DNA of 64,000 nt from sequence record PP400779; one strand, written 5' to 3'. Every line of letters starts with the position of its first letter. The first letter of the stretch is position 1. The translations under genes and the position numbers were made by a program. The DNA comes from Escherichia phage JM17. Positions 1,890 to 52,414 of the stretch are shown piece after piece. Under the pieces are notes generated by a model. It saw only the letters and a list, made by a program, of their open reading frames with translations. It ran no database searches and was not told the DNA's origin.

Positions 1890-1918
1890 AGACCTATGAA
1901 TTGAGCCAAGAGGTACTT

Positions 1919-2476
1919 ATGACTGAACAAAAACCTAAAAATAACTATGTGAATAATAAAGAGCTTCTCGCCGCTATAATCGAGTGGAAAAAGGAGCTCT
2001 TAAATAATAAAGACCCAAACAAAATTATTCGTCAGAATGATACCATCGGTTTAGCAATTATGCTTATCGCCGAAGGCCTGTCCAAACGTTTCAACTTTTC
2101 AGGATATACCCAGTCTTGGAAGCAGGAGATGATTGCAGATGGGATTGAAGCCTCTATTAAGGGACTTCATAATTTCGACGAAACTAAGTACAATAACCCA
2201 CATGCATACATAACTCGAGCTTGTTTTAATGCTTTTGTCCAACGTATCAAAAAAGAACGTAAGGAAGTTGCAAAGAAATATAGTTACTTCGTTCATAATG
2301 TCTATGACAGTCATGACGATGATATGGTAGCGTTGGTAGATGAAACGTTTATTCAAGACATCTACGATAAAATGACGCATTATGAAGAATCCGCTTATAA
2401 AGCTCCTGGGGCTGAAAAGAAGGAAGTTGTTAGCGATTCGCCTAGTTTGGATTTTTTATATGAGGATGACAATTGA
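1919..2476 (+). CDS. 55: late-transcription sigma factor gp55
   Basis: 185 aa from ATG 1919 ([17 protein letters not shown]...); close match to remembered T4 gp55 sequence and length. Confidence 0.9.
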
Positions 2477-6903: not shown

Positions 6904-7320
6904 ATGTTTACTACTGTTAAAGGTTTCACTGCTGCTGATCTGAAAGTTACTTCTATCCGTACTGACGCTAACCCACATAACCATAATCGTGTTCGTAAAG
7001 CATGGGTCCTGCATTGTGATGAAGCAAGTGCTAAAAAACTCCAATCTTTGCCACAAGAAACTCGTTTTATGATTTATGGTTTTATTGATAACGATGTATC
7101 TGATATGTGGATTCATCTGATGCGTAAGCACTATAAAGATTCTATCGAAGCAGGTGCTAAAATCGTTCTTGATAAAGACGGTTCTGAGCGTCTGGAAGAT
7201 TTCTACTGTGTTGATGCCGACGAACAACTAATTGCAGCTGGCGAAATTGTTGCTTCTAAAATTCCAGAATATATTGAATCACTGCCTGAAGCTATTAAAA
7301 AGCAGATGGTTGCTGCTTGA
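6904..7320 (+). CDS. rpbA: RNA polymerase-binding protein RpbA-like (138 aa)
   Basis: size and position immediately upstream of the gene 45 region as in T4; sequence only weakly recognised. Confidence 0.5.
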   Translation: MFTTVKGFTAADLKVTSIRTDANPHNHNRVRKAWVLHCDEASAKKLQSLPQETRFMIYGFIDNDVSDMWIHLMRKHYKDSIEAGAKIVLDKDGSERLEDFYCVDADEQLIAAGEIVASKIPEYIESLPEAIKKQMVAA

Positions 7321-7325
7321 TAATT

Positions 7326-7850
7326 ATGAATTTAATATATCTTATAACCTTTTATAATCGTGAGATTAAAAATGAATACCCGTGTTATTATATAGGTTCT
7401 AAAGTTTCGTGTCATTTTAATGGAAAGGATATTATTGAAGATTCTACCGGTAAAATATATACCGGTAGTGTTAATTCCTCGTATTCTCCTTTATATAACA
7501 GATTAATAGACCAAGGCGAATATTCTGTAAAAATTTTAGGCGAAACCACATTAGACCCTAGAAGAATAGAAAGACTATTCCAACTCAATGTTAAAGCCGT
7601 TTCAAATGAAAAATATTTTAATAAGGCTTATGCTAACGAGAAGTCTAGAATATCAGCTAAAGGATATGCACCGTATAAAAATTTAAAAACAGGCAAAATA
7701 GTAAAACTTTCTAAAAACGAAATAAACGAAGATTACGTCGGTGTTAGAAAAAATTGCAAATTGTCGGAGAATCATTTAAACGCAATTAGAGAATTTCAAA
7801 AAAACATATTGGACCAAAGAACGAAGAGAGAAAGTTTCTATTCGTTCTAA
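7326..7850 (+). CDS. GIY-YIG homing endonuclease, N-terminal catalytic part (seg-like)
   Basis: IYLITFYNREIKNEYPCYYIGSK matches GIY-(x10)-YIG; AT-rich codon usage unlike flanking genes. Confidence 0.55.
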   Translation: MNLIYLITFYNREIKNEYPCYYIGSKVSCHFNGKDIIEDSTGKIYTGSVNSSYSPLYNRLIDQGEYSVKILGETTLDPRRIERLFQLNVKAVSNEKYFNKAYANEKSRISAKGYAPYKNLKTGKIVKLSKNEINEDYVGVRKNCKLSENHLNAIREFQKNILDQRTKRESFYSF

Positions 7851-7854
7851 AAAA

Positions 7855-8217
7855 ATGTTTAACGATAGAGATTTTGCTTTAAAATTTAAAGATATAATGA
7901 ATTCTCCTAATGTTAAAGATAAAATAAAAATATCTAAAACATTGTATTGGTCTAAACCTGAAAATAGAGCAAAGGCCTCTATCGCAGCTTCGAAAAGAAA
8001 TGCAACCAAAGAATTTAAGGATAAATTCAGAAAATCTAAAGCTAGAGGTACATGGATATTTCATGAACAAAAATTAAAGGAATTGTGGATTGCTTTAGGA
8101 AAACCAAGTTATATTACATTTAGAAAACATGCAATTCAGCATGGTTTTAATGATGAATCATACCAAGGTGCTATCCGGTCTTGGACAAATTATTATGCTA
8201 ATAGGAAACCTAAATGA
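7855..8217 (+). CDS. basic protein, possibly the detached C-terminal DNA-binding part of the GIY-YIG endonuclease
   Basis: starts 4 nt after upstream stop in another frame; same AT-rich codon usage; K/R-rich. Confidence 0.35.
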   Translation: MFNDRDFALKFKDIMNSPNVKDKIKISKTLYWSKPENRAKASIAASKRNATKEFKDKFRKSKARGTWIFHEQKLKELWIALGKPSYITFRKHAIQHGFNDESYQGAIRSWTNYYANRKPK

Positions 8218-13707: not shown

Positions 13708-14343
13708 ATGAAAACTACTCCTATTACTATCGCTATTGACGCAATCATAAAACAAGCTTCTTCTTTGGCCGCTATGGCCAAAGTAATTAGTCAAAACCCT
13801 GCTCGTTATAATGCTATTCTAGAAACTCTTCGACGCCCTGGACTTAGTAATTATGAAAGCCGGGTAATTATTACAGGTGTTGGTAAGAATGCTAATATCG
13901 CAACTAAAGCTTCCGAGACATTTGCTTCACTAGGTATTCCTAGCATGTATTTGAACACTGGGCATTATTCTCACGGTGATGCAGGATTCATTGCGCCTAA
14001 TGATGTGTTGATTCATATTAGTCGTTCTGGTAAGACTGAAGAAATGATAGGTGTTGCTAAACATCTTCGTATGATTCGTCCTCAGGTTAAACAGATTCTG
14101 TTACATTGTAACCCAGACATTCCACAAGAATACGAAGCTCTTTTTGATTATACGTTCTGTACTGGCATCGCGGTAGAGGTTGATGAGAATTCTCTGGCTC
14201 CGACTATGTCCACTACATTGTTGTTAGCGCTTATCGATACGTTTGCTATCAACCTTTCGTCTGAACGTGGATTTACCTCTAATGATTTCCTTAAGTTCCA
14301 TCCAGGCGGTGCACTAGGTGCCATGTTACGAGGCGAACAATGA
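13708..14343 (+). CDS. SIS-domain sugar-phosphate isomerase (KdsD/GutQ-like; candidate D-arabinose-5-phosphate isomerase)
   Basis: 211 aa; VIITGVGKN...SLGIPSMYLN...HGD...HISRSGKTEE...FLKFHPGGALGAMLRG parallels KdsD SIS core; no CBS domains. Confidence 0.75.
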   Translation: MKTTPITIAIDAIIKQASSLAAMAKVISQNPARYNAILETLRRPGLSNYESRVIITGVGKNANIATKASETFASLGIPSMYLNTGHYSHGDAGFIAPNDVLIHISRSGKTEEMIGVAKHLRMIRPQVKQILLHCNPDIPQEYEALFDYTFCTGIAVEVDENSLAPTMSTTLLLALIDTFAINLSSERGFTSNDFLKFHPGGALGAMLRGEQ

Positions 14344-14483
14344 AAGCAATAACAATAGGACTTTTACTATTGATGCTTGTCATGACTATCTACTGGAGCT
14401 TAACGGCTCCGGTAATGATTCCAACACTTGTAATTGGATGGATTATGATTGGACTACAAGCAAAGTATGAATGCTTTAACTAG
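14340..14483 (+). CDS. small hydrophobic protein (47 aa, two predicted TM segments)
   Basis: ATG overlaps upstream stop (ATGA); below ORF-track cutoff; lies where T4 has imm. Confidence 0.3.
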   Translation: MKAITIGLLLLMLVMTIYWSLTAPVMIPTLVIGWIMIGLQAKYECFN

Positions 14484-14524
14484 AATAGTGTACAATACTC
14501 CTACTTACCAATGAGGACTTTAAC

Positions 14525-16210
14525 ATGAAAAAAGCTGTTATTCTTGGTGCTGGACTGGCAACTCGTTTGTATCCAATAACGCATCATATTCCTAAGGTGC
14601 TTGTTAACTATAAACAAGATACTATTCTGAGCAATTTGTATACAATTTATTCTGACCTTGGCGCAGATGAAATTATTGTAGTAGTTCATTCAAAATTTGC
14701 TGAAACTGTTCGAGCTTATTGTGAACAAGAAGGGTTCAATGTGACTATTCGTACAGTTGATGAAGCGTATGGTTCTGCTTATGCTCTTGCTAAATTACAC
14801 AAAGATTTAGACGGCCATAATGTAATTGTTAACTGGTGTGATATTATTCCTGATTTTGGTTCATGGTCTTGGAATGTTAACGCAATCTATGTTAAGGGTG
14901 ACGAATGTCGATATAATTTCGACGGTGAAAATATCACTAACGTAGGTTCAACAGGTGGTAATGTTGTAGGAATTTATCAGTTCAAAGACTGGGAATTCTA
15001 TATGGGTTCTACTGATGAGGAAATTCATGAATACTGCAAAGGACGTGATTTCGTAGAATTCCTTTACGGCAGCGCATTCAATAAATCAGAGCTTATGAAT
15101 CTAATTGATTTAGGTGATATGCCTAAACTTGAAAAAGCTCATGAAGTTCGTGAACTTAATCGTAGTTTTAATGCAGTTGAAATTGGTGAAGAAACTGTAA
15201 CTAAATTCGCATTAACCGAACAGGGTCGAGCTCTTCAGAAAGATGAGATTTCGTGGTATCTTAAAGTGAAATCAGATTCAGTTCCTCAGTTAGTTTCTGT
15301 TAATGAAAATAACTTTGAAATGGAACGCATTAAAGGTAAGCCTGCATTTGAATATATTAAATCCAAATCAAGTCTTGCTCGTCCACAAATTGTTGATGCA
15401 ATTTTAGATGCACTGAAATTCAGCACAGACACTTATTTTGTAAGTCCTGAAACTGTTCGTCGTGATTTCACTAAAGAATTCTATACGAAAGTTATTGATC
15501 GTTGTGAAAGCATTCAACCATTGATTGATTCATTTGGTAAAATCACACATGTGAACTACACTAAGATTGGACGTCTGAAGCCAATGCTGAAACAAGCTTT
15601 AGAACACCTCATTCGTTATCATAACCGTTCTCAGGGACAGTACTCTGTTATTCACGGTGACCCGAACTTCAGTAATACTATGATTACTGATAATGGCGAA
15701 GTCAAGTTTATCGACCCTCGTGGATATTTTGGTGAAACCAAGATTTACGGGCCAAAATTGTACGATGAAGCTAAAGTGCTTTACGCTGTTTCAGGTTATG
15801 ATGAATTCAATGCTAATCCGACTTGGGGACAGTTTACTATTGATGAAACAACTTGTAATGTGACTATTAACATCAATCCATTAGTTTACAAATATGGAAA
15901 GATGAGTTCGTTTAACGAGTATCATCATTTGGCAGTGGCAATTATCTGGATTGCATTAGGTGGTTATTTCAAGAATAATCCACTTAAAGCGGTAGCCGCA
16001 TATTATAAAGGTATGGAACTTCTGACTAAGCAATTACGTAACATGGGCCGTGTACTTCAGGACGGCTCTATTAGTTATGACGTAGCAGAACCTGTAACGG
16101 CTACTCTGATTACAAAAAATCCTGGTAAATGGGTACTAACTGATAAAGAAACTGGTGTTTCCTATCGTCCAATCGGTGGCGATATCACTCATCAATGGGA
16201 ACGAATTTGA
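14525..16210 (+). CDS. bifunctional sugar-1-phosphate nucleotidyltransferase / APH-fold sugar kinase
   Basis: 561 aa; N-term AVILGAGLATRLYPIT...PKVLV (NTP-transferase G-loop); C-term VIHGDPNFSN...FIDPRG (Brenner HGDxxxxN and DxxG kinase motifs). Confidence 0.7.
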   Translation: MKKAVILGAGLATRLYPITHHIPKVLVNYKQDTILSNLYTIYSDLGADEIIVVVHSKFAETVRAYCEQEGFNVTIRTVDEAYGSAYALAKLHKDLDGHNVIVNWCDIIPDFGSWSWNVNAIYVKGDECRYNFDGENITNVGSTGGNVVGIYQFKDWEFYMGSTDEEIHEYCKGRDFVEFLYGSAFNKSELMNLIDLGDMPKLEKAHEVRELNRSFNAVEIGEETVTKFALTEQGRALQKDEISWYLKVKSDSVPQLVSVNENNFEMERIKGKPAFEYIKSKSSLARPQIVDAILDALKFSTDTYFVSPETVRRDFTKEFYTKVIDRCESIQPLIDSFGKITHVNYTKIGRLKPMLKQALEHLIRYHNRSQGQYSVIHGDPNFSNTMITDNGEVKFIDPRGYFGETKIYGPKLYDEAKVLYAVSGYDEFNANPTWGQFTIDETTCNVTININPLVYKYGKMSSFNEYHHLAVAIIWIALGGYFKNNPLKAVAAYYKGMELLTKQLRNMGRVLQDGSISYDVAEPVTATLITKNPGKWVLTDKETGVSYRPIGGDITHQWERI

Positions 16211-16956
16211 TACATTATCTCTACAAAACTACTAATCTTATAAACGGTAAAGTTTATTTAGGAATGCACTCGGCTGAAGAAGCCGAGCCTTTAGATTTAT
16301 ATAAAGGTTCTGGTAAATTATATAAAAAGGCTGAAAGGAAATATGGGAAGGAAAATTTTCTTAAAGAAATCATTTCCTACCATAGCTCAAGAGAAGAATT
16401 AAAAATAGCTGAAAAGGCTCTAATAACATTAGACATAGTTAAAGACCCAAATTATTACAATCTTAAAACTGGTGGCGAAGGTGGTTCTGACGGGTTATCC
16501 CAAAGGTCCAAGGATAAAATTTCTAAGGCAAATAAAGGACGTTTAGTTGGTGATAAAAACCCAAGATGGGGTAAAACTTTGTCAGCTGAATCTATAGCTA
16601 GGGGTAAAGAAAAGCACAGGAGGTATGGTAAACCTGCATTACATGGTCTAAAGATTAATGTAGATGGCAAATATTATGAATCCTGTCGGGAAGCGGCTAA
16701 AGATTTAGGTATATCTTCTGCCACGATTCAAAAGAGAGTAAAATCGCCTAAATATCTTAATTATCGGTATCAGGACGAAAGCAAAAATGCTCACAAGTCT
16801 CAAAAATTTGTTAAAATAAACGAAAATTACTATGAATCTCTTAGGATAGCTGAAAAGAAAACGGGTATTCCTAGAAAGCGTATAGCTGATAATATTAAAA
16901 ATTCTATTGAAGGATATTGCTATGAAACCATTACATCTTTGCGTGGACGTCGATGA
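16195..16956 (+). CDS. GIY-YIG homing endonuclease (freestanding, seg-like)
   Basis: 253 aa; HYLYKTTNLINGKVYLGMH = GIY-YIG module; AT-rich codons; overlaps both flanking genes. Confidence 0.7.
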   Translation: MGTNLIHYLYKTTNLINGKVYLGMHSAEEAEPLDLYKGSGKLYKKAERKYGKENFLKEIISYHSSREELKIAEKALITLDIVKDPNYYNLKTGGEGGSDGLSQRSKDKISKANKGRLVGDKNPRWGKTLSAESIARGKEKHRRYGKPALHGLKINVDGKYYESCREAAKDLGISSATIQKRVKSPKYLNYRYQDESKNAHKSQKFVKINENYYESLRIAEKKTGIPRKRIADNIKNSIEGYCYETITSLRGRR

Positions 16957-17296
16957 TTGTATAACAGAGTGGAATAACAATCGTGATTACGTGAACTTCA
17001 AACCAGACGTCGAAATGGTGTCTGCCATTAATGCCCTGTATGATGCAGGGCATACAATAACGCTTTACACTGCTCGAGGTATGAAGTCAGTAGGTCCTGG
17101 TCGTATAGCAATTGACATTCTCCCAAGTCTGATTCAGAACTTGGCAAACATTGGCTTGAAGTACCATAATTTGCTAACACATAAACCAGTATATGATTGG
17201 ATTATCGACGACAAAGCTATGCGTCCTGACGAATTCAAAGCTCTTATGAATAAAGGCGAATTCGAAACATTTAAATCATATAAACCGAATCTATAA
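16922..17296 (+). CDS. HAD-like phosphatase (candidate sugar-phosphate phosphatase)
   Basis: 124 aa from ATG 16922; N-terminal hhhhDxDx motif-like LCVDVDDCIT; small size typical of capless HAD. Confidence 0.45.
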   Translation: MKPLHLCVDVDDCITEWNNNRDYVNFKPDVEMVSAINALYDAGHTITLYTARGMKSVGPGRIAIDILPSLIQNLANIGLKYHNLLTHKPVYDWIIDDKAMRPDEFKALMNKGEFETFKSYKPNL

Positions 17297-17353: not shown

Positions 17354-18514
17354 ATGAATACTTTTAAAATTGGAACGAATTTTGATTTAGCTCTTCTTGA
17401 TAAAATCGTAGAGCTCAATAAAACTTATCCTAATAGCTTGATAAACGAAGTATACGGCTCTACAAGAGAAATGGCTTTTGTAGCAGCCAGACCTGATTTT
17501 AGGCTTCCTGACGTTGACAAAAAGATGTTAGAAGATTACGTTAAACGTTGTAACGAATTAGGTATTTGCTTTAACTATACACTCAACACGATAAATCCTG
17601 GTTCAAAAAGAGAACTAGTTGAGTGGAAGAAGAAAGCTATTCAGGATTATGTTCAGTATCTTTGGTCAATAGGCGTATGGCGTATTACTATCGCTAACCC
17701 TGTTGTTATGGAAATTGTTCGTGAAGTCAATAAAGACATTGAGATTGAAGTTTCAACAATTCTACATGTCGATGCTGTAACTCAAATCAAATACTTGCAT
17801 GACCAGTATAATATCAAAAAGGTCTGCTGTGGAATTCATAAGAACCGTTCAGTTTCTTTCCTGAAGCGTGCAGCAGAGTTTTGCAATAAGAACAATATAA
17901 TATTTGAAGTTCTTGTAAATGAGTTCTGTTCTAATGCCGGTAAAGGGTATACAACACATTGTAGCTATCGTGACTCTTGCTATATTTTCCATAGTACTGA
18001 TGTTACAGCTGATGATGCTAAATCCTTAAACGGATATCCTATGCAGCACTGTATTAAAGCTCGTGATACAGACCCATTTAACTGGTTGAGAACTCGTTTT
18101 GTTCGTCCTCAAGATTTGAAACTTTATAATGATATTGGTATCACTCAATTCAAAGTTTCAGGACGTACAGGTAGCACAGACTACATTTTGAAAGTTCTTG
18201 AAGCATACGCTTCTGAAAAGTTTGAAGGTAATTTGTTAGAACTGTGGAAGCCTTTAGAGACTATTTTCACTCTTGAAAATGAGACCGAGTTTTCACATAC
18301 GGTAAATATTGAAACCTCTTTGTTAGATGGCTTTTTAGAAAAAAGGTGGTTCAGACATCCAGATTTCGATTGTGCTAATGAGATCTGCGGGACGACGTGT
18401 ACATATTGTGAAAGATATTATAAACGTCAGTTATCTAAAAATGGGTTAGCAGAAAACTCTATATCTATTATTGATATAACTAACTCTGATGACGCTTTGA
18501 GGTACCCGGAATGA
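17354..18514 (+). CDS. peptidase-U32-family-like protein (PrtC/RlhA/UbiU-like fold), function unknown
   Basis: 386 aa; IGTNFD...VYGS...CFNYTLNT...IEIEVSTILHV...FEVLVNEFCSNAGKGYTTHCSYRDSCYIFHS resembles U32 core incl. Cys cluster; extra CxxxCxxxCxxC near C-terminus. Confidence 0.45.
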   Translation: MNTFKIGTNFDLALLDKIVELNKTYPNSLINEVYGSTREMAFVAARPDFRLPDVDKKMLEDYVKRCNELGICFNYTLNTINPGSKRELVEWKKKAIQDYVQYLWSIGVWRITIANPVVMEIVREVNKDIEIEVSTILHVDAVTQIKYLHDQYNIKKVCCGIHKNRSVSFLKRAAEFCNKNNIIFEVLVNEFCSNAGKGYTTHCSYRDSCYIFHSTDVTADDAKSLNGYPMQHCIKARDTDPFNWLRTRFVRPQDLKLYNDIGITQFKVSGRTGSTDYILKVLEAYASEKFEGNLLELWKPLETIFTLENETEFSHTVNIETSLLDGFLEKRWFRHPDFDCANEICGTTCTYCERYYKRQLSKNGLAENSISIIDITNSDDALRYPE

Positions 18515-25107: not shown

Positions 25108-25476
25108 ATGAAAAAATTAATCGCTTTAGCAATGGTATTTGGATTAACCGGATGTGGTGCTCATGGCTTTATCCCTAATAACGTCGGCCAACTGATTTAC
25201 AATCCGAATGTTAAACAATATGAACAACCTAAAGTTGAAGTGGAAGACCCGGTTACTGTAGGTAATCGAATGATTCAAGCTGATGCCCATGCTCAACGTT
25301 ATCGTGACTCTGATACCGTAGCATTGTCAAAAGAACAACGCGTTAAAGAACATTGTCTACAGGCTACTGAAATCGCATTCATTCGCTATGTTGAAACAAC
25401 TGGTAAAGAGCCTACCCAGAAACAAATCGCGAATAACTACGTCCAGTGTATTGAACGTTTAAACAAATTTAATTAA
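25108..25476 (+). CDS. predicted lipoprotein (122 aa)
   Basis: signal peptide MKKLIALAMVFGLTGC with lipobox LTGC. Confidence 0.5.
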   Translation: MKKLIALAMVFGLTGCGAHGFIPNNVGQLIYNPNVKQYEQPKVEVEDPVTVGNRMIQADAHAQRYRDSDTVALSKEQRVKEHCLQATEIAFIRYVETTGKEPTQKQIANNYVQCIERLNKFN

Positions 25477-25479
25477 TTG

Positions 25480-25509
25480 GTTTACACCAAAGTTAAAACA
25501 AGATACTAT
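25480..25509 (+). promoter_or_regulatory. early-type promoter
   Basis: gtttac 25480-25485, spacer 18, tactat (gatactata context). Confidence 0.45.
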
Positions 25510-25537
25510 AAACATAACAAATCAAGAGGAAATTAAC

Positions 25538-25786
25538 ATGGAATTATTCGTAGCTAGTTCAGTAGCAGTTTTAATCGCAGGTATTGGTTCAATCATCATT
25601 TACATGTTGCCTTGGGTAATAGCACTTATTCGTGGCACAAAAAGCACAACAGCAATCTTCTTTGTATCTTTACTCTTTAACTGGACGATGATTGGTTGGA
25701 TTGGAACTTTAATTTGGTCTATCGTTGCCGAAAAGAAATCTGCTCAGCAGCCTCAACAAGTAATTATTATTCGCGAAAAAGAATAA
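25538..25786 (+). CDS. small membrane protein (82 aa, two TM segments)
   Basis: hydrophobic stretches AVLIAGIGSIIIYMLPWVIALI and FFVSLLFNWTMIGWIGTLIWSIV. Confidence 0.45.
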   Translation: MELFVASSVAVLIAGIGSIIIYMLPWVIALIRGTKSTTAIFFVSLLFNWTMIGWIGTLIWSIVAEKKSAQQPQQVIIIREKE

Positions 25787-25790
25787 ACTT

Positions 25791-25822
25791 GTTTACATTA
25801 TAGATGGACTATAGTAGTCCTA
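25791..25822 (+). promoter_or_regulatory. promoter/stem-loop cassette (GTTTAC + ggacta-tag-tagtcc hairpin)
   Basis: gtttac 25791-25796; tatagtagtcct module shared with 45849-45860 and 46361-46372. Confidence 0.35.
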
Positions 25823-25844
25823 TCAAATCAACTAAGGAGTTAAA

Positions 25845-26138
25845 ATGAAAAAGTTATCATTGGCAGCAATCTTACTTGCAGTATCATGTGCACCGTCTCC
25901 AGTTACGGCAGGTTATGATAAAGACCTCTGTGAGTGGTCAATGACTGCAAATCAAGAAGATGTTGAACAACAAATCTTCTCTGATATCATGAACATCACT
26001 AAACGAGACCGTCCTAATATGGTTAATAAAGTTGTTGAACAACTTAAGTCTGGCGGTATCATGCAGTACAATTATGTTTTGTATTGTGACCCTAATTTCG
26101 ATAACAAAGATATCGTAACCGAAATCACAGGTGAATAA
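25845..26138 (+). CDS. predicted lipoprotein (97 aa)
   Basis: MKKLSLAAILLAVSC signal peptide with lipobox. Confidence 0.45.
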   Translation: MKKLSLAAILLAVSCAPSPVTAGYDKDLCEWSMTANQEDVEQQIFSDIMNITKRDRPNMVNKVVEQLKSGGIMQYNYVLYCDPNFDNKDIVTEITGE

Positions 26139-27008: not shown

Positions 27009-27476
27009 ATGGGTATTATTAACACTGCAATAGATTCTGTTTATGCATATAAGTTTATTCGACTAATGCAAAAACCTTTTACCGAATGGAAAGCATACGA
27101 AGCCAAAATCATCGATGAACGTGGAAGTGTTCTTAAACGTCCTTCTACTCCAGAAGAGAAAGCGGCTTATACACCTTTTCATGCTTCAGTTCGTTCAATG
27201 AAGCGAATGATGAGCACTGTTCCAGGTCTTAATGGAATGGCCTCAATGATGTCTGCCTGGAGTGCTGTAGCTTCACGCTATAACATTACAGAAGAACAAC
27301 AGAAAGAAATATTTAAAGAACTCCCTTTATTTGAGGATATGGTTGCTGGTGATTCAGGTGGCAGCCCTCAAGCTATTGCATCAGGAACAACTACAGGTGC
27401 AGTCGTAAATAAAGGCCCCGAACAAATTCCTTCCAAGAAAAGAAAGCGAATTAAAGTAAATATTAATAAGTTGTGA
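27009..27476 (+). CDS. hypothetical protein (155 aa)
   Basis: ATG 27009 with caggaggtacct RBS. Confidence 0.4.
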   Translation: MGIINTAIDSVYAYKFIRLMQKPFTEWKAYEAKIIDERGSVLKRPSTPEEKAAYTPFHASVRSMKRMMSTVPGLNGMASMMSAWSAVASRYNITEEQQKEIFKELPLFEDMVAGDSGGSPQAIASGTTTGAVVNKGPEQIPSKKRKRIKVNINKL

Positions 27477-27515
27477 TAAGATGGCCTTATTAATTTAAGG
27501 CCTCTGGAGAATACT

Positions 27516-28538
27516 ATGGCTGAATGGATAGATAATGAATTTGCTTATCGTGCGTTTTCTCACCTACCTCGTTTTAGACAAATCAATAATTCAAGCACAT
27601 TTAAATTAACATTTCGATGTCCAGTTTGTGGCGACTCCCAGACAGATGCAATGAAAGCTCGCGGATGGTATTACGGTGGTACTCCTGGTAATGTACATTG
27701 CTATAACTGTCAATACCACAATACAATTTCCGGATACTTAAAAGAGTACGATGAAGAGCTTTATCGCGAATATCTAATGGAAGTTCGTAAAGAAAAAGCT
27801 AGAATGGAACCAAAGATTGAAAAGGTTCCTGAAGCTAAGCCGGAGCCAGAGAAAAAGACTATAAATTCTTTGCCGTCTTGTTCTCGTCTGGACAAGTTGC
27901 CTGAAGAGCATCCTATTGTGAAATATGTTAAGTCTCGGTGTATTCCTAAAGAATCATGGAACAGATTATGGTTCACATTAGAATGGCCCAAATTGGTCAA
28001 CAAGATTCAACCTGGTACGTATAAGAAAGAGATTCCCGAACCACGTTTAGTGATTCCTATTTTTAATAAAGACGGGAAGGCCGAGTCATTCCAAGGACGT
28101 GCACTTCGTAAAGATGCTCCTCAGAAATATATCACTATTAAAGCATTTGAGTCTGCAACAAAAATTTATGGTGTTGAACGTGTTAAGGAAGGAGACGTCT
28201 GGGTAATGGAAGGCCCTATTGATAGTTTATTCATACCCAATGCAATCGCTATTACAGGCGGCTCAATAGATTTAGATGTGGTACCATTTAAAGAACGTCG
28301 GGTATGGGTAATGGATAATGAACCTAGGCATCCGGATACTATAGCTCGCATGAAGCGATTAGTTGATGCAGGCGAACGTGTCATGTTCTGGGACCGAGCT
28401 CCATGGAGTTCAAAGGATGTGAATGATATGGTAATGAAAGAAAATGCAACACCACAAGAAATTTTAGAATATATGAAACAGAATATTTCAAGTGGGTTGC
28501 ATGCTAAAATGAGATTATCTCGTTATTCGAAGATTTAA
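27516..28538 (+). CDS. 61: DNA primase gp61
   Basis: 340 aa; N-terminal zinc ribbon CPVCGDS...HCYNCQYH; Toprim-like core; position after 41. Confidence 0.85.
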   Translation: MAEWIDNEFAYRAFSHLPRFRQINNSSTFKLTFRCPVCGDSQTDAMKARGWYYGGTPGNVHCYNCQYHNTISGYLKEYDEELYREYLMEVRKEKARMEPKIEKVPEAKPEPEKKTINSLPSCSRLDKLPEEHPIVKYVKSRCIPKESWNRLWFTLEWPKLVNKIQPGTYKKEIPEPRLVIPIFNKDGKAESFQGRALRKDAPQKYITIKAFESATKIYGVERVKEGDVWVMEGPIDSLFIPNAIAITGGSIDLDVVPFKERRVWVMDNEPRHPDTIARMKRLVDAGERVMFWDRAPWSSKDVNDMVMKENATPQEILEYMKQNISSGLHAKMRLSRYSKI

Positions 28539-28732
28539 ACCAGACCTATAATAGCAAAGGCCAAATCAACTACAGTATCCAATGGAACAGAAGGAACTAT
28601 AATACCATGGGCAACTAACAATGGTGCAATCCCGAAGTTCCATGAAATAATGCCACCTACAACTATTGCAGCGATAGCAGTTTTCTTTTTATTGCCTTTA
28701 ATAGCGTTGATTAACGATGGAAGTTTAAACAT
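28535..28732 (-). CDS. small membrane protein (65 aa) encoded antisense to the early array
   Basis: minus-strand ORF with aaggag RBS 6 nt before ATG; two hydrophobic segments. Confidence 0.45.
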   Translation of the reverse strand: MFKLPSLINAIKGNKKKTAIAAIVVGGIISWNFGIAPLLVAHGIIVPSVPLDTVVDLAFAIIGLV

Positions 28733-28821
28733 AATATCTCCTTAGTTACCTTATTATTTATTACGCTTTATAAAATTAATGTTAGAATTAACTCTCTTAT
28801 ACTGAATTGAAAGGAAAAATA

Positions 28822-29343
28822 ATGGCACACTTTAACGAATGTTCACAACTTATTTCTGGTGTTGATAAAGCAGAAGAAGCTTATTTTAATGCTCTGATTC
28901 ACGAAGATAAAGACCCACTGCAGGTAATGCTTGATATGCAGAAATCTTTACAGGTTCGTCTGGCAAATGACAAGCCTGAACATAACAAACATCCTGATGA
29001 ATTGGCTACTGCTGGTGATGTTGTTGATTGGCTGCGTAATCAGAAAGATTATATTGATGATGAATTTCGTGAACTGCTGACTTCACTTGGCGGTATGAGC
29101 AATGGTGAAAAAGCTGCCAGCAGTGTATGGAAGCCGTGGAAGGCACAACACGCTGAATATCGAAATCGTCGTATCGATGAACTGTCTCCTGAAGACCAGC
29201 TTGAAATTAAATTTGAAATGATTGATATTCTGCATTTCGTTCTAAATATGTTCCAAGGTCTAGGACTTTCTGCTGAAGAAATCTTCAAACTGTATTATCT
29301 GAAAAACCAACACAACTTTGAACGTCAGGATAATGGTTACTGA
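28822..29343 (+). CDS. 56: dCTP pyrophosphatase gp56 (MazG-like)
   Basis: 173 aa from ATG 28822 (MAHFNECSQLISGVDKAEEAY...); all-helical MazG-like composition; position 61..56..soc. Confidence 0.7.
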   Translation: MAHFNECSQLISGVDKAEEAYFNALIHEDKDPLQVMLDMQKSLQVRLANDKPEHNKHPDELATAGDVVDWLRNQKDYIDDEFRELLTSLGGMSNGEKAASSVWKPWKAQHAEYRNRRIDELSPEDQLEIKFEMIDILHFVLNMFQGLGLSAEEIFKLYYLKNQHNFERQDNGY

Positions 29344-29349
29344 TTAAGT

Positions 29350-29357
29350 TATAAATA
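29350..29357 (+). promoter_or_regulatory. late promoter (TATAAATA)
   Basis: exact TATAAATA 32 nt upstream of soc start. Confidence 0.65.
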
Positions 29358-29388
29358 CACCTGTAATTAAACAACAAAGGAGTTAATT

Positions 29389-29625
29389 ATGGGTGGTTAT
29401 GTAAACATCAAAACCTTTACGCATCCTGCTGGTGAAGGTAAAGAAGTTAAAGGTATGGAAGTTTCTGTGCCGTTTGAGATTTATTCAAACGAACATCGGA
29501 TTGCAGATTCTCATTACCAAATCTTTCCATCAGAAAAGGCAGCTTATTCTACTGTAGTTTCTGATGCAGCTGACTGGAAAACTAAGAACGCTGCAATGTT
29601 TACCCCTACACCAGTAAGCGGTTAA
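29389..29625 (+). CDS. soc: small outer capsid protein Soc
   Basis: 78 aa; GYVNIKTF...HYQIFPSEKAAYSTV closely matches remembered T4 Soc; late promoter upstream. Confidence 0.85.
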   Translation: MGGYVNIKTFTHPAGEGKEVKGMEVSVPFEIYSNEHRIADSHYQIFPSEKAAYSTVVSDAADWKTKNAAMFTPTPVSG

Positions 29626-29634
29626 ATAATTTAA

Positions 29635-29661
29635 GGAATCCTTCGGGATTCCTTTTTTTTT
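29635..29661 (+). terminator. intrinsic terminator (UUCG hairpin + T9)
   Basis: ggaatcc-ttcg-ggattcc followed by ttttttttt. Confidence 0.7.
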
Positions 29662-51754: not shown

Positions 51755-52414
51755 TTATTTAGCCCTTCCTAGTATTCGGATCGCTTGGTTGCATATAGCC
51801 GCTAAGCGATCTTCCTCAAGTATATTATTCCCCTTATACCAATACATCGTCACAGTTCCAGCATAGATGTTATCCAAATTAAAATATGGACAACTATACA
51901 TATAAGAAAGTTCGGCAGTCTTAGATTTTGTAGGCAAAAATGCAAATTCTGTTTTAGATGAGAAATGACGGCCACTTAAATGAATTATATATTCATTAGC
52001 CGTTTTATCCACTGGGAATCCGCCAAGGGACTTTTCAGAAATTGTGCTAGGTAGTTTGCCTTCATAAGCTATAAGGTCGACAAAATAATTTAAGTTTTTA
52101 GGTCTGAAAGAATACACAGCACTAAAATCTGCACCAGATGAGATATGAACTATTTGCAGTTGTTCTAGAGCCGCAGATTCAAAACGTAAAGCTCGTTCTT
52201 TTTGGATTATTTCAGTATAAGTATCATACTTAGCTCTTACATAATAATCCAGCAAAATACTTCCTTTGTACCATATTAGTGCCATTAGGAACAAAAGAAT
52301 AATTACCGCTACTCGGGACATTAAAACCTTTCCAGTAGCGTTATCTTTGAAAATACGATCTAGCAACCCAAATAGAATATCACTAGGCGAAAATGATACT
52401 TTTGGTGTTGCCAT
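51755..52414 (-). CDS. t: holin T
   Basis: 219 aa; MATPKVSFSPSDILFGLLDRIFKDNATGKVL...CPYFNLDNIYAGT closely matches remembered T4 holin. Confidence 0.9.
   Translation of the reverse strand: MATPKVSFSPSDILFGLLDRIFKDNATGKVLMSRVAVIILLFLMALIWYKGSILLDYYVRAKYDTYTEIIQKERALRFESAALEQLQIVHISSGADFSAVYSFRPKNLNYFVDLIAYEGKLPSTISEKSLGGFPVDKTANEYIIHLSGRHFSSKTEFAFLPTKSKTAELSYMYSCPYFNLDNIYAGTVTMYWYKGNNILEEDRLAAICNQAIRILGRAK

What the first reader, a model, noticed from the sequence alone, without database searches (positions are those of the whole stretch)
28535..28732. Antisense small membrane-protein gene between primase (61) and dCTPase (56)
A 65-aa ORF with two hydrophobic segments and a good RBS (aaggag 6 nt before ATG) lies on the minus strand inside an otherwise strictly plus-strand early array. 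Reverse-oriented small membrane proteins in T-even genomes are often superinfection-exclusion, immunity or anti-defence factors.
Basis: seen in the sequence. Interest (0 to 1): 0.4.

Follow-up and report, generated by a model that had tools for sequence, protein, structure and literature searches.

The report
Conserved late small membrane-protein gene beside primase
The reverse-strand 65-codon ORF is a real, conserved but uncharacterised T4-family phage gene for a small membrane protein, most likely switched on late in infection; databases already list it as a hypothetical protein, although the T4 reference annotation omits it.

Summary
Window 28535-28732 (-) is a 65-aa ORF with AAGGAG 5 nt before the ATG. 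It fills the gap between primase (gene 61) and dCTPase (gene 56) of a Mosigvirus (RB69/JS09-like; 99.9% identical to phage FL18). In phage ST0, the aligned 50 kb carries 85 annotated genes and this is the only one on the minus strand.

It is a real gene: dN/dS is 0.05-0.36, synonymous sites are saturated between genera, one phage has an in-frame indel, and some phages carry tandem paralogues. It matches PHROG 2024 and equals RB69ORF029w, both of unknown function. Orthologues abut the 3' end of the primase gene in at least 9 genera, while the other neighbour varies. The T4 and JS98 reference records leave the orthologue unannotated.

A T4 late-promoter motif (AATAAATA here, TATAAATA or another one-base variant elsewhere) sits 12-24 nt before the start in nearly every lineage. 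The reverse orientation therefore most likely means late, gp55-dependent expression.

The predicted protein has a basic N-terminus, one transmembrane helix with invariant W-N…P, and a short acidic or neutral tail, most likely N-in/C-out. It has no relatives outside these phages and no match in Pfam, NCBIfam, PADLOC or PDB sequences.

The superinfection-exclusion or anti-defence reading is untested. Function remains unknown. My best guess is a late envelope or lysis-timing modulator.

The parts
28535..28732 (-). CDS of a 65-aa small membrane protein (RB69ORF029w / PHROG 2024 family, subtype A), stop codon included
   Evidence: ORF listing and sequence. phrog_2024 match at E=1.9e-27 over residues 1-65 of 65. 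Annotated as a hypothetical protein in ST0, FL18 and RB69. dN/dS 0.05-0.36.
28738..28743 (-). Shine-Dalgarno sequence AAGGAG, 5 nt upstream of the ATG
   Evidence: Read directly from the sequence. An AGGAG-type SD is present at the same place in every orthologue examined.
28755..28762 (-). T4-type late-promoter motif AATAAATA, the A(-13) variant of TATAAATA. The predicted transcription start is near 28749, giving a leader of about 17 nt.
   Evidence: Pattern search and context. The same motif class sits 12-24 nt upstream of the ATG in 9 of the 11 orthologous or paralogous loci listed. A(-13) is the commonest natural variant, at 9 of 50 T4 sites (PMC2988020), and A or T at -13 is common in the T4-like phages studied, RB69 among them (PMC1524935). 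The transcription start is inferred, not measured.
28610..28690 (-). Region coding for the predicted transmembrane helix (residues 15-41), which contains the family-invariant W31, N32 and P37
   Evidence: AlphaFold2 helix 15-41, mean pLDDT 80.7. Hydropathy and Hessa-scale windows. Invariant columns in the family alignment.
28535..28538 (.). 4-nt overlap (TTAA) of the convergent stop codons of this gene and primase gene 61. There is no room for a terminator between them.
   Evidence: Sequence. No terminator-like site was found on the minus strand within 27400-28535. The same abutting, convergent arrangement occurs in T4, JS98, RB69, Moon, Marfa, Kosakonia 305 and others.
28762..28788 (+). Context only: a likely MotA-type middle promoter for gene 56 (aCGCTTtA, 12-nt spacer, TAGAAT), back-to-back with the late motif
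   Evidence: Read from the sequence against the consensus (a/t)(a/t)(a/t)TGCTTtA-N11-13-TAtaAT quoted in PMC1524935. This is inference and was not tested.

Best explanation
This is a real gene, conserved across the Tevenvirinae (RB69ORF029w / PHROG 2024 family). It is transcribed in the direction opposite to the surrounding early and middle genes because it is driven by a T4-type late promoter that depends on gp55, gp33 and gp45 (AATAAATA at 28762-28755).

**Expression (inferred).** The message would appear only after replication begins. It has a leader of about 17 nt with a strong Shine-Dalgarno sequence, and with no terminator it runs on into the antisense strand of the primase gene.

**Product.** The protein is a 65-aa single-pass inner-membrane protein.
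- The N-terminus is a basic amphipathic segment (+5) that stays in the cytoplasm.
- One transmembrane helix (about residues 18-41) carries an invariant mid-membrane Trp-Asn pair and a Pro kink.
- A 24-residue acidic or neutral hydrophobic tail with an invariant G…P-x-V motif faces the periplasm or lies at the membrane interface.

**How it most likely works (inferred).** It acts as a small membrane-embedded modulator. The polar face of the transmembrane helix and the juxtamembrane motif would mediate self-association, or binding to a phage or host inner-membrane partner, late in infection. The most plausible arena is envelope events of the late period: lysis timing, lysis inhibition, or late protection against superinfection.

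**Shown versus inferred.**
- Shown: the ORF, selection at the protein level, synteny, the promoter motif and its conservation, and the predicted helices.
- Inferred: late timing, topology, and mode of action.
- Unknown: the actual target.
For: **Coding**
- Within-genus dN/dS is 0.05-0.36 (for example, window vs L008: 13 synonymous and 3 non-synonymous changes).
- Synonymous sites are saturated between genera, yet protein identity stays at 45-54%.
- Phage a20 has an in-frame 3-codon deletion.
- A tandem paralogue exists in Gaprivervirus TH41 and L009, itself with dN/dS 0.05. ESCO47 also carries two family members.
- 685 of 692 phage records carry a match covering at least 80% of the protein in one piece.

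**Family breadth and synteny**
- Subtype A occurs in Tequatrovirus (T4 included), Mosigvirus and Gaprivervirus.
- Subtype B occurs in Dhakavirus, Gaprivervirus, Marfavirus, Kanagawavirus and Gelderlandvirus. The more divergent Moonvirus copy was found with the B-type query.
- The gene is always convergent with, and abutting, the primase 3' end. The opposite neighbour varies: 56, dam, or a small ORF.

**Late promoter**
- The motif is TATAAATA in Kosakonia 305, Marfa and Q7622; AATAAATA in the window and JS98; GATAAATA in T4; CATAAATA in TH41 and CJ20. All lie 12-24 nt before the ATG, in flanks that otherwise cannot be aligned.
- ATAAATA is depleted in the window: 12 observed against 28.6 +/- 5.5 expected.
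- All four TATAAATA sites in the window sit directly upstream of an SD plus ATG. Two of these genes were identified here, soc and holin t (identities).
- Of the eight non-T variants in the window, only this one precedes an SD plus ATG.
- The phage encodes gp55 at 1901-2476.
- Literature: A(-13) occurs at 9 of 50 T4 late sites, and late transcripts can have either polarity (PMC2988020). T at -13 is poorly conserved in most of the T4-like phages analysed, RB69 among them (PMC1524935).

**Membrane protein**
- GRAVY is 1.24.
- AlphaFold2 has mean pLDDT 80.7, with helices at 3-11, 15-41 and 51-62.
- Only the first hydrophobic window approaches insertion energy. Charge runs from +4 to +7 at the N-terminus to neutral or negative at the C-terminus in all family members.
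- Invariant columns are W31, N32, P37, G43, P47 and V49.
Against: - There is no expression data of any kind. Late timing rests on a short motif, and none of the subtype-A lineages (window, T4, Gaprivervirus) has the consensus T at -13. GATAAATA and CATAAATA are rarer variants of unknown strength.
- Moon and CGG4-1 show only a TATTAAATA-like sequence.
- Topology comes from crude hydropathy, the positive-inside rule, and an AlphaFold2 model built on 9 sequences. A two-helix hairpin, or signal-peptidase cleavage after the invariant A/T/S-x-G (residues 41-43), is not excluded.
- No partner, phenotype or homologue of known function was found. The proposed arena of lysis or envelope events is therefore a prior from T4 biology, not a result.
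- Classical screens for T4 rapid-lysis (r) mutants, as I recall them from the literature (not checked here), did not identify this locus.
Confidence: 0.6

Rival explanations
1. It is a superinfection-exclusion, immunity or anti-defence factor. The small membrane protein would block DNA entry of secondary phages, or neutralise a membrane-associated host defence.
For: - It is a small membrane protein that evolves faster than its neighbours: 53-54% identity between the window and T4, against 74% for primase and 72% for gp56.
- It has two divergent subtypes, with duplication and decay of copies. This pattern is typical of proteins that interact with hosts or competitors.
- The wider neighbourhood holds imm, sp and dmd.
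Against: - It has no similarity to Imm, Sp or any PADLOC family.
- The known exclusion genes in the window are on the early strand.
- A late promoter would give protection only late in infection.
- The gene is nearly universal, with fixed synteny, across at least 9 genera infecting different hosts. That looks more like a core accessory function than a host-specific counter-defence.
Confidence: 0.2
2. It is a holin-like or viroporin-like protein. The single transmembrane helix would oligomerise through its polar Trp-Asn (and, in subtype B, Asp) face to form a small pore. That pore would depolarise the membrane or tune holin triggering late in infection.
For: - The motif implies late expression.
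- The protein is small, with invariant polar residues in the middle of the transmembrane helix.
- One orthologue is labelled 'Holin' in UniProt (A0A482MZV5, phage OE5505).
Against: - The 'Holin' label is a bare annotation with no cited evidence.
- No holin HMM matches in Pfam, NCBIfam or PHROGs.
- The protein lacks the charged hydrophilic C-terminal domain typical of holins. Its charge is at the N-terminus.
- The phage already has the canonical T-type holin at 51755-52414, with its own TATAAATA promoter.
- It is not next to an endolysin gene.
Confidence: 0.12
3. It is a secreted or released peptide. The N-terminal 43 residues would act as a long signal or signal-anchor-release sequence, cleaved after the invariant small-x-Gly (A41-H42-G43). 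This would free a 22-residue acidic hydrophobic peptide into the periplasm.
For: - Residue -1 (G43) is invariant, and residue -3 is always small (A, T or S).
- A helix-breaking Pro lies at -7.
- The N-region is basic.
- About 46% of the transmembrane segment consists of Gly, Ala, Ser, Thr or Asn in the window and T4 copies, counted directly from the sequences.
Against: - The hydrophobic core is 19-24 residues, longer than typical Sec signal peptides.
- Its centre (W-N) is the most conserved part of the protein, which is unusual for a signal peptide.
- The Gaprivervirus copy has a strongly hydrophobic helix.
- No signal-peptide predictor was available.
Confidence: 0.08
4. The main function is at the RNA level. 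The late transcript would serve as an antisense RNA that silences or destabilises primase (gene 61) mRNA late in infection, and the ORF would be incidental.
For: - The stop codons overlap convergently, and there is no terminator-like site on the minus strand inside the primase gene.
- Tight linkage to the primase 3' end is the one invariant feature of synteny.
- Both strands of T4 DNA are known to be transcribed at different times at several sites (PMC2988020).
Against: - Purifying selection at the protein level, a conserved SD and start codon, in-frame indels, and paralogues kept intact as ORFs all show that the peptide itself is selected.
- Antisense read-through may be a side effect or a secondary role.
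- There is no Rfam match.
Confidence: 0.05
5. It is a chance ORF in a non-coding spacer that only carries the promoters for gene 56.
For: - Spurious minus-strand ORFs of similar length are common in this AT-rich DNA.
- The curated T4 and JS98 reference records do not annotate it.
Against: - dN/dS is well below 1.
- The protein is conserved across at least 9 genera, with synonymous sites saturated.
- There is a full-length PHROG match.
- A strong SD is present everywhere.
Confidence: 0.02

Closest known systems
RB69ORF029w (NP_861719) / PHROG 2024 / ST0 gp087 (YP_009608376): hypothetical-protein family of T-even phages
   Same: It is the same gene. The HMM match is full length (E=1.9e-27). It has the same position and orientation between genes 61 and 56.
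   Different: Nothing differs. The family has no assigned function. This work adds its breadth (subtypes A and B, at least 9 genera), the late-promoter motif, and the finding that the T4 and JS98 reference annotations omit it.
T4 late genes placed inside early-gene regions (for example soc, next door at 29389-29625)
   Same: A TATAAATA-class motif lies 20-31 nt upstream of an SD plus ATG, and the gene sits within an early or middle gene cluster.
   Different: soc is co-oriented with the early genes and carries the perfect consensus. This gene is reverse-oriented and uses the A(-13) variant. It encodes a membrane protein, not a capsid protein.
T4 Imm (superinfection immunity protein, 82-83 aa inner-membrane protein; window 25538-25786)
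   Same: Both are small hydrophobic phage-encoded inner-membrane proteins of similar size, in the same genomic neighbourhood.
   Different: There is no sequence similarity. Imm lies on the early strand. From its sequence, Imm appears to have two long hydrophobic segments and a charged C-terminus, whereas this protein has one transmembrane helix and a charged N-terminus.
Holins and pinholins (T4 T, phrog_860; small class II holins such as S21-68)
   Same: Late expression is inferred. The protein is small, membrane-embedded and has polar residues within the transmembrane helix. One orthologue carries a database label of 'Holin'.
   Different: No holin HMM matches. There is no charged C-terminal domain. 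It is not linked to an endolysin gene. The canonical holin T is present elsewhere in the window.
T4 RI antiholin (N-terminal signal or anchor plus periplasmic domain)
   Same: The predicted N-in/C-out membrane-tethered architecture with a periplasm-facing C-terminus, and a possible role in late lysis control (inference).
   Different: The periplasmic part here is only about 24 residues, against about 70 in RI (from my own knowledge of RI, not checked here). The PHROG scan gave no hit other than phrog_2024.

Membership tests
PHROG 2024 / RB69ORF029w family | Full-length profile match | tested here: met
   phrog_2024 at E=1.9e-27, residues 1-65 on profile positions 1-65 of 65.
PHROG 2024 / RB69ORF029w family | Conserved position: convergent with, and abutting, the 3' end of primase gene 61 | tested here: met
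   Window, ST0/FL18, RB69, T4, and 7 further phages of other genera.
T4-type late (gp55-dependent) genes | TATAAATA-class element at about -13 to -6, a short distance upstream of the gene | tested here: met
   AATAAATA at 28762-28755, 22 nt before the ATG. This is the A(-13) variant, which accounts for 9 of 50 T4 sites (PMC2988020). The element is conserved across genera.
T4-type late (gp55-dependent) genes | The phage encodes the late sigma factor gp55 | tested here: met
   Window 1901-2476 (+) matches phrog_234, late sigma transcription factor, at E=3.9e-68.
T4-type late (gp55-dependent) genes | The transcript appears late and depends on gp55, gp33, gp45 and replication | not testable with these tools
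   No expression data are available, and no paper covering this ORF was found.
Holins | At least one transmembrane domain | tested here: met
   AlphaFold2 helix 15-41, plus hydropathy.
Holins | Hydrophilic, highly charged C-terminal domain | tested here: not met
   The C-terminal 24 residues are hydrophobic, with only 2 acidic residues and no Lys or Arg. The charged segment (+5) is at the N-terminus.
Holins | Sequence membership of a described holin family | tested here: not met
   No hits in Pfam or NCBIfam even at E<=10, and only phrog_2024 (unknown function) in PHROGs. The 'Holin' name on A0A482MZV5 is a label only.
Holins | Forms lethal membrane lesions that release endolysin | not testable with these tools
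   This needs expression and proton-motive-force assays. The phage already has holin T at 51755-52414.
T4 Imm / Sp superinfection-exclusion proteins | Sequence homology to Imm or Sp | tested here: not met
   A family HMM searched against all 929 window ORFs hit only the ORF itself; Imm and Sp were not hit. Sp is phrog_1586, and the ORF matches only phrog_2024.
T4 Imm / Sp superinfection-exclusion proteins | Blocks entry of DNA from superinfecting phages | not testable with these tools
   This requires superinfection assays.
Known anti-phage defence system components (PADLOC) | Profile match | tested here: not met
   No families matched at E<=1 for either subtype A or subtype B.

The most novel reading that the evidence does not exclude
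T4, the most intensively studied lytic phage, and all its close relatives would carry an overlooked late gene, absent from the T4 reference annotation. Its single-pass membrane product would be a previously unrecognised component of late envelope control: lysis timing, lysis inhibition, or late superinfection protection. It would act through a conserved Trp-Asn transmembrane face. Its promoter would also send a late antisense transcript into the primase gene.
Probability: 0.2. Interest if true: 0.6.

Novelty: already known. Interest (0 to 1): 0.3.

Why it matters
On its own this is an ordinary outcome. The ORF is a real gene, already catalogued as a hypothetical protein (RB69ORF029w, PHROG 2024).

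The modest added value is threefold:
- The curated T4 record (NC_000866/AF158101, gap 17626-17934) and the JS98 reference record omit a gene that is conserved, under selection, and present in at least 9 genera of T4-like phages.
- Its reverse orientation is explained by a conserved late promoter. This makes it one of the few late genes embedded in the early replication-gene cluster.
- It is a compact, phage-restricted membrane protein with an invariant polar transmembrane motif. A short set of T4 experiments could test its function, which might concern lysis or envelope biology.

Tried and rejected
- **Protein-family searches.** Pfam and NCBIfam at E<=10 returned nothing. PADLOC returned nothing. 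A PDB sequence-profile search gave only noise at E>=0.27. Rfam on 28300-29000 returned nothing.
- **Exhaustive HMMER search.** A profile search of 1.84 billion cluster representatives found only two cluster representatives, one of them from the query alignment itself. No named relatives emerged, so there are no distant functional leads.
- **Word-indexed protein searches.** These gave 7 and then 89 hits. All are T4-like phage or metagenome sequences named 'hypothetical', apart from obvious mislabels.
- **Foldseek against viral structure models.** The only significant hit is the T4-type orthologue itself, labelled 'Holin'. A 65-aa helical model is too simple for fold inference, so PDB and AFDB fold searches were not run.
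- **Sigma-70 promoter and terminator scan.** Hits were at chance level, with none upstream of the ORF on the minus strand. An early promoter for this gene was therefore rejected.
- **Paralogy with other window genes.** The family HMM hit nothing else in the window, Imm and Sp included, so this was rejected.
- **Literature.** Five full-text searches found no paper mentioning this ORF, including one for RB69ORF029w and NP_861719. The Miller 2003 T4 genome review is not held.
- **T4_ev240 truncation.** This turned out to be a 1-nt deletion in an A-run in a T4-like recombinant. It may be a sequencing error and is not informative.
- **Considered but not run.** An AlphaFold run on a fusion of the ORF with holin T was not attempted.
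Full report
**1. What the window is.** The region 27500-29400 is 99.9% identical to Escherichia phage FL18 and about 98% identical to ST0 and other Mosigvirus (RB69/JS09-type) phages. The ST0 record is essentially collinear with the window. It shows the classical T-even early and middle replication-gene cluster on the + strand: gp55, 47/46, 45, 44/62, 43, uvsX, 40, 41, dmd, imm, sp, 61, 56, soc, mrh, modA/B, dda, and so on to rIIA/B, ndd and motA.

**2. The observation.** The ORF at 28535-28732 (-) exists as described: ATG, 65 codons, TAA.
- AAGGAG lies at 28743-28738, 5 nt before the ATG.
- The left neighbour is primase: phrog_47 at E=3e-102, 74% identical to T4 gp61.
- The right neighbour is the dCTPase gp56: phrog_173, 72% identical to T4 gp56.
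- The stop codons of the ORF and the primase gene overlap in a TTAA (28535-28538).
- Of the 85 CDS annotated in 50 kb of ST0, this is the only one on the minus strand.
- The ORF fills what would otherwise be a 283-bp non-coding gap in a very densely coded genome.

**3. It is a real gene.** Length alone is not evidence, since spurious minus-strand ORFs of up to 91 aa occur nearby. The evidence for coding is as follows.
- It gives a full-length match to PHROG 2024, a family of unknown function (E=1.9e-27).
- It is annotated as a hypothetical protein in ST0, FL18, a20 and CJ20, and as RB69ORF029w in RB69.
- tblastn finds it in 692 phage records, and 685 of them carry a match covering at least 80% of the protein in one piece.
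- Nei-Gojobori estimates show purifying selection:
  - window vs L008: 13 synonymous and 3 non-synonymous changes, dN/dS 0.06;
  - T4 vs L011: 0.12;
  - TH41 vs CJ20: 0.36;
  - between genera, synonymous sites are saturated (pS 0.6-0.8), yet proteins remain 45-54% identical.
- Phage a20 has a clean 3-codon deletion.
- Gaprivervirus TH41 and contig L009 carry a second, divergent tandem copy 8 nt downstream. That copy is itself under strong constraint (dN/dS 0.05). In CJ20 the second copy has decayed.

**4. Family and distribution.** Two subtypes exist.
- Type A has the pattern M-x-KL-x2-L-x2-AIKG-x-(K/R)K(K/R)…WNF…P…HG…P-x-V-x-L(D/E)…VD…GL. It occurs in Tequatrovirus (T4 included), Mosigvirus, and as the first copy in Gaprivervirus.
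- Type B has the pattern MG-x-IFYQIWKL…LALDVFLWN…P…G…LP-x-V…EH. It occurs in Dhakavirus (JS98), in Klebsiella Marfavirus and related phages, in Kanagawavirus (Q7622, Kosakonia 305, PEi20) and Gelderlandvirus, and as the second Gaprivervirus copy. The more divergent Moonvirus copy was found with the B-type query.
- Columns invariant across both types are W31, N32, P37, G43, P47 and V49.
- In every genome examined, the gene converges on and abuts the 3' end of the primase gene. The gene on the other side differs: 56, dam in T4, or small unrelated ORFs elsewhere.
- An exhaustive HMMER profile search of 1.84 billion representative proteins returned only two cluster representatives. A word-indexed profile search returned 89 proteins, all from T4-like phages or metagenome contigs. 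The family is therefore restricted to this phage group.
- The curated T4 records (NC_000866.4, AF158101.6) leave the 309-bp dam-61 gap empty, although it holds the 66-aa orthologue at 17738-17938. The JS98 RefSeq record likewise omits its copy.

**5. Why it points the other way: a late promoter.**
- On the ORF's strand, AATAAATA lies at 28762-28755, 22 nt before the ATG.
- ATAAATA is strongly avoided in this window: 12 sites against 28.6 +/- 5.5 in shuffles, and none of the 100 shuffles had fewer than 12.
- All four perfect TATAAATA sites sit 20-31 nt upstream of an SD plus ATG. Two of the genes they precede were identified here: soc at 29389 and holin t at 52414 (identities).
- Among the eight non-T variants in the window, only this one precedes an SD plus ATG.
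- The same element is found upstream of the orthologues, in sequence that otherwise cannot be aligned:
  - TATAAATA in Kosakonia 305, Marfa and Q7622;
  - AATAAATA in JS98;
  - GATAAATA in T4;
  - CATAAATA in TH41 and CJ20;
  - only Moon and CGG4-1 have a looser TATTAAATA.
- According to Geiduschek and Kassavetis (PMC2988020), 32 of 50 T4 late sites are perfect and 9 have A at -13. They also state that late transcripts can have either polarity.
- Nolan et al. (PMC1524935) note that T at -13 is poorly conserved, being A or T, in most of the T4-like phages they analysed; RB69 was among the five studied.
- The late sigma factor gp55 is encoded in the window at 1901-2476.
- No sigma-70-like promoter precedes the ORF on its strand.
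- I therefore infer gp55-dependent late transcription, starting near 28749, with a leader of about 17 nt.
- The same 89-bp intergenic region carries, on the other strand, a good MotA-type middle promoter for gene 56: aCGCTTtA, 12 nt, TAGAAT, at 28762-28788. This was read against the consensus quoted.
- The two stop codons overlap, and no terminator-like hairpin follows on the minus strand. The late transcript must therefore continue antisense into the primase gene, and early primase transcripts must cross this ORF antisense.

**6. The protein.**
- GRAVY is 1.24. Five Lys residues lie in residues 1-17, and two Asp and no basic residues lie in the last 24.
- AlphaFold2, run on a 9-sequence alignment, gave mean pLDDT 80.7. 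It predicts helix 3-11, a 27-residue helix 15-41, a Pro-rich loop 42-50, and a 12-residue helix 51-62.
- On an additive Hessa scale, only the window around residues 18-36 approaches membrane-insertion energy (-2.4 to +3.6 kcal/mol across the family). The best C-terminal window costs +5 to +12.
- The charge asymmetry, +4 to +7 at the N-terminus against neutral or negative at the C-terminus, holds in all members.
- By the positive-inside rule (established knowledge), this predicts a single-pass protein with the N-terminus inside and the C-terminus outside.
- The most conserved residues, W31 and N32, lie mid-helix. An invariant asparagine inside a transmembrane helix is a classical driver of helix-helix association (established knowledge). 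I therefore infer self-association or partner binding within the membrane.

**7. Function.** No homologue of known function exists in Pfam, NCBIfam, PADLOC, PDB sequences or PHROG annotation.
- The family HMM hits nothing else in the window, including Imm and Sp.
- One orthologue is named 'Holin' in UniProt. Against that label: holin HMMs do not match, the charged domain is at the wrong end, and the canonical T holin is present.
- The gene evolves faster than its neighbours (53-54% identity against 72-74%) and shows duplication and loss of copies. This suggests an interaction surface under diversifying pressure.
- My working model is a late-expressed, membrane-embedded modulator of envelope events: lysis timing, lysis inhibition, or late superinfection protection.
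- The rivals, listed with the results that would refute each, are: an exclusion or anti-defence factor, a viroporin or holin-like pore, a cleaved periplasmic peptide, an antisense regulator of primase, and a chance ORF. The last is effectively refuted.

**8. Comparison and verdict.**
- Its interpretation is only partly supported. In this genome the known exclusion proteins, Imm at 25538-25786 and Sp at 25845-26138, are on the early strand. Reverse orientation is better explained by late-promoter control.
- The gene is already in the databases as a hypothetical protein (RB69ORF029w since the RB69 annotation; PHROG 2024), so the feature itself is not new.
- What this analysis adds is the conserved late promoter, the A and B subtypes and their breadth across genera, the fixed coupling to the primase 3' end, the predicted topology, and the gaps in the T4 and JS98 reference annotations.
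- Interest is modest at 0.3. It would rise if the protein proved to be a missing player in T4 lysis or envelope control.
- No publication mentioning the ORF was found in five full-text searches.

Noticed in passing
L003 3239-3439 (= T4 NC_000866 17738-17938, +); L017 3344-3544 (= JS98 NC_010105 15343-15543): The curated T4 (NC_000866.4, AF158101.6) and JS98 reference records leave the orthologue of this gene unannotated. In T4 it sits in the 309-bp dam-61 gap.
   Followed up: yes
L004 2501-2698 and 2707-2907; L009 same coordinates; L005 about 2700-2816: Gaprivervirus TH41 and an IMG/VR contig carry tandem A-type and B-type copies of the gene, 8 nt apart. In CJ20 the B copy has decayed to a 119-nt remnant. 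Phage ESCO47 also has two family members, ESCO47_00130 and ESCO47_00131.
   Followed up: partly
window 28762-28788 (+): A MotA-box-like aCGCTTtA, a 12-nt spacer and TAGAAT form a probable middle promoter for gene 56. It lies back-to-back with the late motif of the reverse gene. In T4, oriA is annotated near the start of gene 56.
   Followed up: no
whole window: The heptamer ATAAATA is strongly under-represented: 12 sites against 28.6 +/- 5.5 in dinucleotide shuffles. This is consistent with selection against stray late promoters. All four TATAAATA sites precede an SD plus ATG, at 29351 (+), 52435 (-), 56758 (-) and 61838 (-).
   Followed up: partly
window 29633-29654: A perfect 9-bp GC-containing hairpin (AAGGAATCC-ttcg-GGATTCCTT) follows soc. 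It has a T-run on the + strand and scores as a terminator on both strands.
   Followed up: no
window 14200-17100 (ST0 gp064-gp067): Arabinose-5-phosphate isomerase-like and phosphoheptose isomerase-like genes sit next to the DNA polymerase gene. From my own knowledge, they are probably part of the RB69-type arabinosyl-hydroxymethylcytosine DNA modification pathway. This was not examined.
   Followed up: no
database records of orthologues (H106, H118, P0029, P0042, A0A482MZV5): Several orthologues carry obviously wrong or unsupported product names: 'DNA packaging ATPase' (VAC36, SAKp28), 'dCTP pyrophosphatase' (CGG4-1, SEA1) and 'Holin' (OE5505).
   Followed up: partly
L025 (T4_ev240 LR597657 about 16195-16320): This T4-like genome has a 1-nt deletion in the AATAAGAAA run of the ORF, which truncates the annotated product. 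It could be a real frameshift or a homopolymer sequencing error.
   Followed up: partly
window 7317-8217 (+) vs ST0 25207-25996: The window has ORFs of 177 aa and 120 aa in the interval where the ST0 record shows a gap of about 790 bp without annotation, between gene 46 and 45.2. They were not examined.
   Followed up: no
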